Origin: a virus
Lineage: Duplodnaviria; Heunggongvirae; Uroviricota; Caudoviricetes
Strand: one strand, 5' to 3'
Length of the DNA stretch: 16,054 nt
IMG/VR virus record: IMGVR_UViG_2703718862_000008
Coordinates: 1-16,054 of that record
Shown here: positions 441 to 11,624 of the stretch, piece by piece
How the letters are laid out: every line of letters begins with the position of its first letter
Position numbering within the stretch: the first letter of the stretch is position 1
Made by a program: the position numbers and the translations under genes
Notes under the pieces: model-generated
The model's input: only the letters and a program-made list of their open reading frames with translations
Told to the model about the DNA's origin: nothing
Databases searched by the model: none

Positions 441-971
441 TTATCGAAATGAATCGTGCATAGGTACATAAAGCATGTGTTCAGCCACGGCTAACCAACC
501 TGCAATACGTTTCTCACATGTGCTGAAACACCATTCCGGGTGAGTACGATTTAAACATTCTGCCATTTTTCTCTTACTCATTCCCCGTCCTTCGTACCTT
601 TGCCGGAGAATATTGATTAGCCCGGGATATTCCCCAAGCACCTTACTGATAACGCGATCAATAATCAACGCCTCTGTGTCTGTACAATGTGACAACCAGC
701 TCTTCTGCTTTCCTCTTGTCATATCCCGAAAAAATGCCTCAAGTTCCGGTTTTTCCAGCCCGGATTTCTTCATTCTGCGCAAAACCTCATTAACTGCTGT
801 TTTCGTCAGCTTTTTCGAAACCAGTAACCGGTTAAACATATTTCCGGATTTACCCCCACCGATATACGACCACCGCCCCCACATCCGTAATTTCCCCTGG
901 ATCCAGACTGCTTCCAGCGTGTTCAGGCGTAAATGTTCGCCGCTTTTGCCTGTAATTTCCGGATATATCAT
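441..971 (-). CDS. late-gene antiterminator Q-like protein (176 aa)
   Basis: Lies directly downstream of rusA at the end of the early-right operon, the canonical Q position. WG.W motif (LRMWGRWSY) and a C-terminal Cys/His cluster resemble Q21/QuuD-type antiterminators as I recall them. ATG at 969-971 is 8 nt after the rusA stop; the track start at 983 is a TTG. Confidence 0.5.
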   Translation of the reverse strand: MIYPEITGKSGEHLRLNTLEAVWIQGKLRMWGRWSYIGGGKSGNMFNRLLVSKKLTKTAVNEVLRRMKKSGLEKPELEAFFRDMTRGKQKSWLSHCTDTEALIIDRVISKVLGEYPGLINILRQRYEGRGMSKRKMAECLNRTHPEWCFSTCEKRIAGWLAVAEHMLYVPMHDSFR

Positions 972-2681: not shown

Positions 2682-2819
2682 CGGTTGTCTCTGCTGGCGC
2701 AGCAGGTGCCAGTTGTTCAGGCTGACGTGCGAATTGTAAACCAGAATGCCAGGAAAAAACAAAACCCGACGAAGCGGGTTAAGCGCGGGTGCGTTGAGGA
2801 TGCCTGACACATCAGAGGT

Positions 2820-2841
2820 GGCGGGAGATTTCTCCCCCGCC
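2820..2841 (-). other. GC-rich hairpin immediately 3' of hokD (GGCGGGAGA-TTT-CTCCCCCGCC); likely hok mRNA 3' structure or terminator
   Basis: Near-perfect 9-10 bp GC stem directly seen 8 nt past the hokD stop. No clean U-tract follows on the - strand. Confidence 0.4.
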
Positions 2842-2848
2842 TGGTCTC

Positions 2849-3004
2849 TTACTCCTCAGGTTCGTAGACTGTGAAGACAGCGACCTCCGTCTGGCCGGTT
2901 CGGATTCGTACCTCGCAGAGGTCTTTCCTCGTTACCAGTGCCGTCACTATGACGGTTAAACAGATGACGATAAGGGCGATTAGCATCGCCTTTTGCTGCT
3001 TCAT
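2849..3004 (-). CDS. hokD: Hok-family membrane toxin (51 aa), HokD/RelF-like
   Basis: Product MKQQKAMLIALIVICLTVIVTALVTRKDLCEVRIRTGQTEVAVFTVYEPEE has one TM helix and matches my recollection of HokD almost residue for residue. GGAG lies 9 nt upstream of the ATG at 3002-3004. An in-frame ATG 19 codons upstream (3061) gives the 70-aa track ORF. Confidence 0.8.
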   Translation of the reverse strand: MKQQKAMLIALIVICLTVIVTALVTRKDLCEVRIRTGQTEVAVFTVYEPEE

Positions 3005-3295
3005 AGCCTGCTTCTCCTTGCCTTTCGGCACGTAAGAGGCTAACCTACGTGTGTAGAGCATAGATATGGCATCAGATTAATGTTAAGCGTCTTGCCGGAC
3101 GCGCAATGTTAACTGGGGCTTTTCTCTATCTGCCTTTTGGTATTCATGCCTGAGACAGATAGCCTCAAGCACCCGCAGCAATTCTACTTAACTATCCTTT
3201 CCCCGCAAATCGTTTTTATCCCCAGCGACAAATCGAATACACCACCAGCGCCACCGCCATTGCGATCCCTACCGTTGTGAATGCCTCAGGCCAGG
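3005..3295 (-). promoter_or_regulatory. hok leader/regulatory region (expected promoter, mok-type upstream translation start, possible Sok-type antisense RNA on the + strand)
   Basis: About 290 nt between the upstream gene stop and the hok ATG. Presence of regulatory RNA is inferred from hok/sok biology; I could not place a convincing Sok promoter or terminator by eye. Confidence 0.3.
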
Positions 3296-3640
3296 TCATC
3301 GTAAAACATCCTCTGCGCTTATCAGTCCGTTTCGCTTCAGGTAGTCCATCGCCTTACCCGGCAATTTACAGTCCGGCTTCGTTTTCCTCAGTTGCCAGGT
3401 TAACTGCTTTACCAGCATGGTTAACTCGTCGACCAGACGCTGATGTCCCACTGGTTTGTATTCATGCAATTTACCGGCTGGCTCTGCTGCCAGCGATGCC
3501 AGTGCGATTTCCAGAACAGCAATATCCATCTTATATGTGCGGATGATGTCATGGTCGATTGTGCCCGGTATGCACAGTCTCTGTGCTTCAATAGTCTCCT
3601 CTGCGTGAGCTATTAACTGCTCTCTGGTAAAAGTGGTCAT
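3296..3640 (-). CDS. hypothetical protein (114 aa); N-terminal domain paralogous to the gene at 4154-4579
   Basis: ATG at 3638-3640 overlaps the upstream stop (ATGA). N-terminus [13 protein letters not shown]...[10 protein letters not shown] parallels MTELTKEQLIEEA...IALTSLEAEP. Confidence 0.6.
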
Positions 3641-11566: not shown

Positions 11567-11624
11567 TTTCTGGTGACGTTTGGCGGTATCAGTTTTACTC
11601 CGTGACTGCTCTGCCACCCTTTTT
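11567..11624 (+). ncRNA. dicF: DicF small regulatory RNA (about 53 nt mature) plus U-tail
   Basis: tttctggtgacgtttggcggtatcagttttactccgtgactgctctgccaccc followed by ttttt matches the DicF sequence as I remember it. It sits immediately upstream of dicB as in Qin. Confidence 0.8.

What the first reader, a model, noticed from the sequence alone, without database searches (positions are those of the whole stretch)
2820..3295. hokD-type toxin gene without relBE and with a long upstream leader
The product is essentially HokD/RelF, but the relE-relB genes that precede hokD in K-12 Qin (from memory) are absent; a 114-aa unrelated gene sits upstream instead. About 290 nt of leader and an in-frame ATG 19 codons upstream of the hok start are present, and a strong GC hairpin follows the stop. 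This may be a hok locus that keeps its own regulatory leader, unlike the relBEF arrangement.
Basis: partly seen in the sequence, partly recalled or inferred. Interest (0 to 1): 0.5.

Follow-up and report, generated by a model that had tools for sequence, protein, structure and literature searches.

The report
Complete prophage hok/mok/sok toxin-antitoxin cassette
This is an ordinary, already described hok/mok/sok RNA-controlled toxin cassette sitting in a lambda-like prophage of E. coli, the intact form of the gene that K-12 carries only as a truncated stub (hokD) behind relBE.

Summary
On the minus strand, a 51-codon hok gene (3004..2849) encodes a protein 50/51 identical to K-12 HokD. It has an in-frame mok start 19 codons upstream and no relBE.

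- It has its own promoter and a 5' tac element that pairs with a 3' fbi element.
- It has a tac/ucb stem, a mok reading frame, a convergent Sok antisense gene with promoter and hairpin, a 3' stem-loop and a terminator.
- The Rfam hok-leader model scores 109 bits against a threshold of 59.

The cassette actually spans about 3215..2753, so it runs past the flagged coordinates on the 3' side. The mRNA leader is about 172 nt, not 290.

None of this is new. [quoted passage not shown] At least 80% of the stretch occurs in 2626 of 5426 complete E. coli genomes. The K-12 relE-hokD fusion occurs in 1166.

One peculiarity is a rare G-to-T change that destroys the mok Shine-Dalgarno sequence (GAGG to GAUG), so this copy may be attenuated.

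The parts
3203..3209 (-). Candidate hok promoter -35 (TTTGCG/TTGCGG)
   Evidence: Read directly from the sequence. It lies 16-17 nt upstream of the -10. Conservation among 66 other unique related loci begins at about 3215. It is a weak consensus match and the promoter scan did not call it. Inferred.
3181..3186 (-). hok promoter -10 (TAGAAT)
   Evidence: Read from the sequence. TAGAAT is kept in nearly all of the ~77 related prophage loci even though the upstream flanks differ. It lies 5-7 nt before the start of the conserved 5' end.
3163..3176 (-). tac element (GCGGGUGCUUGAGG), the 5' end of the hok mRNA
   Evidence: It pairs with 2799..2785 in the MFE and centroid of the full-length transcript. 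It is identical in 68 of 77 loci. The same 5'-3' helix is predicted in the R1-type hok and K-12 hokB controls.
3114..3174 (-). tac-stem hairpin, including the ucb/anti-SD (AGCCCC, about 3120..3115)
   Evidence: Matches the Rfam RF01794 consensus structure at positions 1-59. It forms in the fold of the 3'-truncated transcript. In the full-length fold, 3115 and 3118 pair with the mok SD bases 3073 and 3070.
2999..3174 (-). hok mRNA leader matched by the Rfam 'sok' model RF01794
   Evidence: 109.1 bits against a gathering score of 59, E=1.8e-24, model positions 1-157 of 157. The control on K-12 hokC shows this model lies on the hok-sense strand.
3070..3073 (-). mok Shine-Dalgarno position, here GAUG instead of GAGG (T at 3071)
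   Evidence: Among the ~75 leader-bearing loci compared, every other one has GAGG; only the window and L012 (plus genome locus L002) have GAUG. The predicted duplex with the 16S 3' tail is +0.6 kcal/mol, against -5.6 kcal/mol for the common allele.
2849..3061 (-). mok reading frame (70 aa, in frame with hok and sharing its stop)
   Evidence: ORF list. It is 91% identical to MokW of 933W and 71% identical to K-12 MokC. PHROG 251 'MokW-like host killing', E=7.9e-32.
3014..3019 (-). hok Shine-Dalgarno (AAGGAG)
   Evidence: Read from the sequence. Invariant in the family alignments. Anti-SD duplex energy is -8.5 kcal/mol.
2849..3004 (-). hok toxin gene (51 aa)
   Evidence: Pfam HOK_GEF E=6.2e-22. 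50/51 identical to K-12 HokD. RefSeq annotates the identical DNA as hokD.
3018..3046 (+). Sok promoter: -35 TTGCCT (3018..3023), 17-nt spacer, -10 TAACCT (3041..3046)
   Evidence: Read from the sequence. This stretch is identical to 933W. The primer used to make the promoter-less sokW mutant in PMC8621323 (YO-421) replaces exactly this -10. The consensus scan did not call it.
3053..3123 (+). Predicted Sok antisense RNA (about 71 nt)
   Evidence: Positional equivalent of the annotated sokW of 933W (L001 2734..2804). It folds with 8 unpaired 5' nt, one long hairpin and a U-rich tail; -21.7 kcal/mol, z=-2.48. Expression was not tested.
2820..2841 (-). 3' stem-loop (9-bp G+C-rich), the 'strong GC hairpin' of the finding
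   Evidence: Present in every fold. It corresponds in position to the hairpin that protects the 3' end of truncated R1 hok mRNA (PMC9841398). The equivalence is inferred.
2785..2799 (-). fbi element (CCUCAACGCACCCGC)
   Evidence: Forms 14 pairs plus one bulge with tac. Identical in 62 of 77 loci. Retained in K-12 hokD.
2753..2780 (-). Intrinsic terminator of the hok transcript
   Evidence: Terminator scan: a 6-bp stem at 2780..2763 followed by a T run. Conservation of the cassette ends at about 2755.

Best explanation
The region is a complete hok/mok/sok type I toxin-antitoxin cassette of the hokD/hokW lineage. It is carried as a self-contained 'moron', with its own promoter and terminator, in the nin region of a Qin-like lambdoid prophage of E. 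coli.

Inferred mechanism, by homology with plasmid R1 hok/sok and with Sp5 hokW-sokW:
1. A weak promoter makes a stable mRNA of about 425 nt (3176..~2753, minus strand).
2. In that full-length mRNA the 5' tac element pairs with the 3' fbi element, and the mok ribosome-binding site is held by the ucb. The full-length RNA is therefore neither translated nor bound by Sok.
3. Slow 3' trimming back to the G+C-rich stem-loop removes fbi.
4. The 5' end then refolds into the tac/ucb stem and exposes the mok start region.
5. Translation of mok drives translation of the overlapping hok.
6. The short-lived Sok RNA, made from a convergent promoter inside the leader (plus strand, ~3053..3123), pairs with the mok start region, blocks it, and triggers RNase III cleavage.
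7. If Sok synthesis stops, Hok is made and damages the inner membrane. In Sp5 this happens on prophage induction.

What is shown here: the sequence elements, the predicted pairings, and their conservation. What is inferred: transcription, processing, toxicity and biological role.

This particular allele has GAUG in place of the GAGG mok Shine-Dalgarno sequence. It probably makes less Hok than typical copies.
For: - Toxin and leader: Pfam HOK_GEF E=6e-22. PHROG 251 'MokW-like host killing' E=8e-32. Rfam RF01794 full-length match at 109 bits, with a strand control on K-12 hokC and on 933W.
- Closest annotated relative: 92% DNA identity over all 476 nt to 933W, where mokW, hokW and sokW are annotated at the equivalent positions.
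- Long-range pairing: tac/fbi pairs in the MFE and centroid, z=-5.55. The same 5'-3' helix is predicted for R1-type hok and K-12 hokB. Relative to hokB there are two double-sided changes (U9-A to C9-G, G14-C to A14-U).
- Refolding: removing fbi switches the 5' end to the tac/ucb stem and frees the mok SD region.
- Sok: the promoter hexamers are identical to those of 933W, and the -10 is the one mutated in the promoter-less sokW construct. Sok folds as a 5' tail plus hairpin plus U tail.
- Cassette boundaries: conservation across 66 other unique IMG/VR loci is at least 0.8 from about 3195 to 2755, rises from about 3215, and falls to about 0.5 outside. This marks a mobile cassette.
- Experiments on the Sp5 homologue: HokW is toxic, sokW counteracts it, both RNAs were detected by Northern blot, and sokW is lost on induction (PMC8621323).
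Against: No expression data exist for this copy. The hok and Sok promoters are weak consensus matches, and the generic scan did not call them. The mok Shine-Dalgarno sequence is mutated (GAUG), and in R1 single substitutions in the mok SD are loss-of-function (PMC9841398). The toxin arm may therefore be crippled. Chromosomal hok loci tested earlier did not mediate post-segregational killing, as cited in bioRxiv 10.1101/2025.08.07.668861. The fold of the truncated RNA depends on where the 3' end is placed: with the common SD allele and my arbitrary end at 2808, the tac/ucb switch was not the MFE.
Confidence: 0.93

Rival explanations
1. The cassette is structurally complete but functionally silenced. 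The G-to-T change in the mok Shine-Dalgarno sequence (3071) prevents mok, and therefore hok, translation. The locus would then express only the hok mRNA and Sok RNA, as a decaying or domesticated copy.
For: Among the ~75 leader-bearing loci compared, only the window and L012 have GAUG; genome locus L002 also carries it. The anti-SD duplex is +0.6 against -5.6 kcal/mol. Only 4 of 5309 matching E. coli records are at least 99% identical to this allele. In R1, substitutions in the GAGG mok SD and in the mok start codon abolish toxicity (PMC9841398). K-12 hok loci are commonly inactivated by IS elements next to hokA, hokC and hokE.
Against: Everything else is intact: the hok ORF, the mok ORF, tac, fbi, the Sok promoter and the terminator. 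The exact position mutated here (third base of GAGG) was not among the R1 loss-of-function hits quoted. Initiation without a strong SD is possible once the region is unstructured, and in the truncated fold the region is largely unpaired. The same change also weakens SD sequestration by the ucb, losing one G-C pair, which could partly offset the loss.
Confidence: 0.35
2. hok here is not separately regulated. It is simply a passenger gene co-transcribed with the phage early-right (replication/nin/Q) operon, and the upstream 290 nt are ordinary intergenic sequence.
For: hok lies in the same orientation as all neighbouring genes, from the replication genes through to rusA and Q. Read-through from upstream during induction is therefore plausible and may add to expression.
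Against: The leader matches the hok-family covariance model end to end. A conserved -10, tac, fbi and terminator travel with hok into unrelated flanks. In 933W the same cassette sits in a different part of the genome. The long-range 5'-3' helix requires a defined 5' end.
Confidence: 0.04
3. The Rfam hit means that a 'sok' RNA is encoded on the minus strand, the same strand as hok, rather than antisense to it.
For: RF01794 is named 'sok antitoxin' and matches the minus strand at 2999..3174.
Against: In K-12 the same model matches the hokC/mokC strand (L004 602..754, minus), while the curated sokC is on the opposite strand (653..711, plus). In 933W it likewise matches the strand opposite the annotated sokW. 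The model ends at the hok AUG. It describes the hok mRNA leader, which contains the complement of Sok.
Confidence: 0.02

Closest known systems
mokW/hokW/sokW of Stx2 phage 933W / Sakai prophage Sp5
   Same: 92% DNA identity over the whole 476 nt. mok is in frame with hok, and Mok is 91% identical. tac, fbi and the Sok promoter hexamers are identical. It is carried by a lambdoid prophage. [quoted passage not shown]
   Different: It sits elsewhere in the phage: in 933W near the right end of the map beside L0136/L0139, here in the nin region upstream of rem/ydfU/rusA/Q. About 9 substitutions fall in the Sok 5' recognition region and mok codons 2-6. The window has GAUG where 933W has the GAGG mok SD. 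The Hok C-terminus differs (TVYEPEE against VDYESEK). 933W also lacks the window-type terminator sequence.
hokD (relF) of the K-12 Qin prophage, third gene of relB-relE-hokD
   Same: The protein is 50/51 identical. The neighbourhood downstream is the same: a ydfU/DUF968 homologue and a DUF1133 Q-like protein, with DicF elsewhere in the same prophage. The 3' stem-loop, fbi and terminator are shared (96% identity over window 2755..3018).
   Different: K-12 keeps only 14 nt upstream of the hok ATG. The promoter, tac, ucb, the mok start and the whole Sok gene are replaced by the end of relE. The K-12 junction is found in 1166 of 5426 genomes. The leader is found in 4125 of 5426, although that count probably includes other hok paralogues.
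hokC/mokC/sokC (gef) of E. coli K-12
   Same: Same architecture, with mok in frame. The leader aligns throughout and gives the same Rfam match at 118 bits. Mok is 71% identical.
   Different: It is chromosomal rather than prophage-borne. In K-12 its 3' side is interrupted by IS186.
hok/mok/sok (parB) of plasmid R1 and IncF relatives
   Same: Same set of elements and the same predicted 5'-3' closing helix. This is the mechanistic paradigm for tac/fbi, ucb, mok coupling, Sok and RNase III (PMC9841398).
   Different: Hok is only 39% identical. In R1, mok is out of frame with hok. It is plasmid-borne and mediates post-segregational killing.

Membership tests
hok/mok/sok type I toxin-antitoxin family | Small Hok/Gef-type membrane toxin ORF | tested here: met
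   Pfam PF01848 E=6.2e-22, 77 bits against a cut-off of 22. 98% identical to HokD.
hok/mok/sok type I toxin-antitoxin family | Overlapping mok reading frame that starts upstream of hok | tested here: met
   70-aa ORF from the ATG at 3061, in frame with hok. 91% identical to MokW and 71% to MokC.
hok/mok/sok type I toxin-antitoxin family | Functional mok Shine-Dalgarno sequence (GAGG) about 9 nt upstream of the mok AUG | tested here: not met
   The window has GAUG at 3073..3070, while nearly all related loci have GAGG. The anti-SD duplex is +0.6 against -5.6 kcal/mol. This is an allele-level defect, not a difference in architecture.
hok/mok/sok type I toxin-antitoxin family | Conserved hok mRNA leader sequence and structure | tested here: met
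   Rfam RF01794 at 109.1 bits (gathering score 59), covering model positions 1-157 of 157. Strand controls.
hok/mok/sok type I toxin-antitoxin family | Long-range tac (5') / fbi (3') pairing that closes the full-length mRNA | tested here: met
   14 pairs between 3176..3163 and 2799..2785 in the MFE and centroid, z=-5.55. The same helix appears in the hokB and R1-type controls, with compensatory differences.
hok/mok/sok type I toxin-antitoxin family | Alternative tac/ucb stem in the 3'-truncated mRNA, with ucb sequestering the mok SD in the full-length form | tested here: inconclusive
   Predicted for the window allele and matches the Rfam consensus structure. With the common SD allele and the arbitrary 3' end I chose, the switch was not the MFE. 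The true processing site is unknown.
hok/mok/sok type I toxin-antitoxin family | Convergent Sok antisense gene overlapping the mok start, with its own promoter and a terminal hairpin | tested here: met
   Met at sequence level. TTGCCT-17-TAACCT lies at 3018..3046 and is identical to 933W, where this -10 was mutated to silence sokW. The RNA at ~3053..3123 folds as a tail plus hairpin plus U tail and is the positional equivalent of the annotated sokW.
hok/mok/sok type I toxin-antitoxin family | Sok RNA is actually expressed and unstable; Hok is toxic; Sok neutralises it | not testable with these tools
   Shown only for the Sp5 homologue (PMC8621323).
relBEF operon (K-12 Qin arrangement) | relB and relE immediately upstream of, and co-transcribed with, hokD | tested here: not met
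   No relB or relE sequence. K-12 homology stops at window 3018. The upstream genes are a 27-aa ORF and a 114-aa ORF matching PHROG 660.

The most novel reading that the evidence does not exclude
This rare allele, with the mok Shine-Dalgarno sequence destroyed (GAGG to GAUG at 3071) but with Sok, its promoter and all RNA elements intact, may be a naturally disarmed cassette. Its Sok 5' recognition sequence is the commonest allele among related prophage cassettes (19 of about 77). It could therefore neutralise hok mRNAs of co-resident or incoming prophages of the same specificity type, acting as an antitoxin-only immunity or anti-addiction element.
Probability: 0.12. Interest if true: 0.35.

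Novelty: already known. Interest (0 to 1): 0.1.

Why it matters
It matters little beyond tidy annotation. The locus shows what K-12 hokD looked like before relBE displaced its leader. It also shows that RefSeq labels such complete cassettes only as 'hokD', without mok or Sok, so the regulatory RNA is invisible in standard annotation.

The homologous Sp5 cassette speeds host lysis and doubles phage release. Intact copies in Qin-like prophages may likewise tune induction. The mok-SD variant offers a natural test of the mok-hok coupling rule outside plasmid R1.

Tried and rejected
1. I first took the Rfam 'sok' hit as locating the antisense RNA. I rejected this after controls on K-12 hokC and on 933W showed that the model lies on the hok-sense strand.
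2. The generic promoter scan found neither the hok nor the Sok promoter, because both have fewer than 4 of 6 matches in one hexamer. It flagged TTAACA-18-TATGCT at 3086..3057 (minus) inside the leader, and that count was no better than in shuffles (1 found against a mean of 0.6). I disregarded it.
3. I looked up Steif & Meyer 2012 for a statement on hokD truncation; the paper is not held. Pedersen & Gerdes 1999 is also not held. The truncation is shown directly by my own alignments instead.
4. I tested whether co-resident cassettes in one genome carry different Sok recognition alleles. Only two same-genome pairs were available: one differed and one was identical. This is inconclusive.
5. I folded the truncated mRNA with the common SD allele to ask whether the variant changes the switch. 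The result depended on my arbitrary 3' end, so I did not interpret it.
6. I considered the 27-aa ORF as part of the hok unit and rejected that. Only 17 of about 78 hok loci carry it, and it also occurs in positions away from hok, after ead/Ea22-like genes.

Full report
**What is there**

The flagged interval lies on the minus strand of a lambdoid prophage. The ORF at 3004..2849 encodes a 51-aa peptide that matches Pfam HOK_GEF (E=6e-22). It is 50/51 identical to K-12 HokD, differing by A46V. An in-frame ATG at 3061..3059 extends it to 70 aa. This longer product is 91% identical to MokW of phage 933W and 71% identical to K-12 MokC, and it matches PHROG 251 'MokW-like host killing'.

The next gene upstream is a 114-aa ORF (3640..3296) of unknown function, PHROG 660. 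There is no relB or relE. A 9-bp G+C-rich hairpin follows the stop codon at 2841..2820.

**Surroundings**

All neighbouring genes run in the same direction:
- downstream of hok, a rem-like ORF, a DUF968/YdfU homologue, RusA and a DUF1133/Q-like antiterminator;
- upstream, Ea22-like, replication and repressor genes;
- DicF RNA at 11568..11619.

This is the layout of the K-12 Qin prophage, here in a fuller state. A direct BLAST comparison with K-12 Qin shows that homology to the cassette covers only window 2755..3018 at 96% identity. K-12 therefore keeps hokD, the 3' stem-loop, fbi and the terminator, but only 14 nt upstream of the hok ATG. Beyond that point the K-12 sequence is the end of relE.

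**Regulatory elements**

The Rfam model RF01794 ('sok') matches 2999..3174 on the minus strand over its full length, at 109 bits against a gathering score of 59 (E=1.8e-24). Controls show that this model lies on the hok-sense strand. In K-12 it matches the hokC/mokC strand, while the curated sokC is on the opposite strand. The same holds for 933W. It is therefore evidence for a conserved hok leader, not for the position of the antisense RNA.

Read against the ruler, the elements on the minus (hok-sense) strand are:

| Element | Coordinates |
|---|---|
| -35, approximate | 3209..3203 |
| -10 TAGAAT | 3186..3181 |
| mRNA 5' end | about 3176/3174 |
| tac (GCGGGUGCUUGAGG) | 3176..3163 |
| tac-stem hairpin, with ucb at about 3120..3115 | 3174..3114 |
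| mok SD position | 3073..3070 |
| mok AUG | 3061..3059 |
| hok SD (AAGGAG) | 3019..3014 |
| 3' stem-loop | 2841..2820 |
| fbi (CCUCAACGCACCCGC) | 2799..2785 |
| intrinsic terminator | 2780..2753 |

On the plus strand, the Sok promoter is TTGCCT (3018..3023), a 17-nt spacer, then TAACCT (3041..3046). The stretch holding both hexamers is identical in 933W. The -10 is the one replaced in the promoter-less sokW construct of Takada et al. (primer YO-421). The predicted Sok RNA (~3053..3123) is the positional equivalent of the annotated sokW. It folds into an 8-nt single-stranded 5' tail, one long hairpin and a U-rich tail.

**Folding tests**

- Full-length transcript (3176..2745): MFE -168.4 kcal/mol, z=-5.55. 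The first 14 nt pair with fbi in both the MFE and the centroid structure.
- Controls: the same closing helix is predicted for an R1-type IncF hok locus (z=-8.07) and for K-12 hokB (z=-4.68).
- Compensation: compared with hokB, two pairs of the helix differ on both sides (U-A to C-G and G-C to A-U). Compared with R1, GGGUGC/GCACCC becomes GGCGC/GCGCC.
- Full-length form: the mok SD bases pair with the ucb at 3115..3118.
- After removing fbi (3176..2808): the 5' end refolds into the tac/ucb stem seen in the Rfam consensus, and the mok SD region becomes largely unpaired.

This is the R1 scheme summarised in PMC9841398. The truncated fold depends on an assumed 3' end, so I treat that step as consistent rather than demonstrated.

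**How common and how known**

- Phage records: the 476 nt match 82 phage records. They are 92% identical to 933W, where mokW, hokW and sokW are annotated at the equivalent positions.
- Complete E. coli genomes: 2626 of 5426 hold at least 80% of the 476 nt, always annotated only as 'hokD'. The 211-nt leader alone is found in 4125 genomes with no annotation under it, a count that probably includes paralogues. The K-12 relE-hokD junction is found in 1166 genomes.
- IMG/VR loci: of 80 loci encoding this Hok, 2 have the K-12-type fusion and almost all the others carry the leader.
- Cassette boundaries: conservation across 66 other unique loci is high from about 3215 to 2755 and falls to about 0.5 outside. 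The unit is a mobile cassette with its own promoter and terminator, inserted in varied contexts.
- Experiments: Takada et al. 2021 showed for the Sp5 copy that HokW is toxic and that sokW counteracts it. Both RNAs are detectable, and sokW disappears on RecA-dependent induction. HokW reaches the inner membrane, and deleting the locus halves phage release (PMC8621323).
- Survey: a recent survey reports hok enrichment in prophages (bioRxiv 10.1101/2025.08.07.668861).

The finding is therefore already known.

**One peculiarity**

Among the ~75 leader-bearing loci compared, every other one has GAGG as the mok Shine-Dalgarno sequence. The window and L012, together with the identical genome locus L002, have GAUG, with T at 3071. 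The predicted duplex with the 16S 3' tail changes from -5.6 to +0.6 kcal/mol. Only 4 of 5309 matching E. coli records are at least 99% identical to this allele.

In R1, single substitutions in the mok SD or the mok start codon are loss-of-function, because hok translation depends on mok translation (PMC9841398). This copy may therefore be attenuated or silent while still making Sok. This is inference. The mutated base is not one of the R1 positions quoted, and the change also weakens sequestration of the SD by the ucb.

**Verdict**

The leader is about 172 nt, not 290. The cassette extends to 2753, beyond the flagged range. The GC hairpin is the internal 3' stem-loop, not the terminator. The locus is a member of a well-known family, and its closest relative has been characterised experimentally. 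Interest is low.

Noticed in passing
window 3299..3216 (-): A 27-aa hydrophobic ORF ([27 protein letters not shown]). Its ATG overlaps the stop of the 114-aa ORF (ATGA). RefSeq does not annotate it in the identical genome locus. It keeps constant length and the ATGA overlap in 17 of about 78 related loci, including 933W, where the upstream gene is different. There are 34 synonymous against 15 non-synonymous codon differences, though these are not independent. tblastn finds the peptide in 88 phage records, down to 63% identity at full length, often after ead/Ea22-like genes and sometimes far from hok. There is no PHROG hit. It is probably a real small membrane protein gene that is not part of the hok cassette.
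   Followed up: partly
window 3071 (mok SD, 3073..3070, -): A rare G-to-T change turns the mok Shine-Dalgarno sequence GAGG into GAUG. Among about 78 loci it is shared only with L002 and L012. It may silence or attenuate the toxin.
   Followed up: partly
window about 3068..3045 (-) = 5' part of Sok: The stretch from just before the mok AUG through mok codons 2-6, which is the Sok 5' recognition/target hairpin, is hypervariable. There are at least 16 alleles among cassettes that are otherwise more than 95% identical, and the substitutions keep a short hairpin. This suggests diversification of Sok specificity. Two same-genome pairs gave one different and one identical allele.
   Followed up: partly
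window 11568..11619 (+): DicF antisense sRNA, a full-length Rfam match at 70 bits. It marks the prophage as Qin-like.
   Followed up: no
window 2866..2863 (-): The Tyr47 codon of hok is TAC followed by G. This is the TACG motif reported as the TadA A-to-I editing site that recodes Tyr to Cys in hokC, hokD and hokE (PMC5630033). The motif is retained here.
   Followed up: no
Rfam RF01794 matches: window 2999..3174 (-), L004 602..754 (-), L001 2680..2854 (-): The Rfam family named 'sok antitoxin' matches the hok-mRNA sense strand and ends at the hok AUG. It lies opposite to the curated sokC and sokW features. Strand calls taken from this family will mislabel the antisense RNA.
   Followed up: yes
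L001 5206..5294 (-) (phage 933W 61136..61224): An Rfam sRNA-Xcc1 match (69 bits, gathering score 53) near the right end of 933W. It was seen only because the locus was scanned as a control.
   Followed up: no
L002 16269..16571 and 15907..16266 (genome copy of the same prophage, beyond or near the window's right part): The identical prophage in NZ_CP180600.1 also carries a HigB-family type II toxin with an HTH partner and a YdaT-family toxin gene. The element therefore holds several toxin-antitoxin modules.
   Followed up: no
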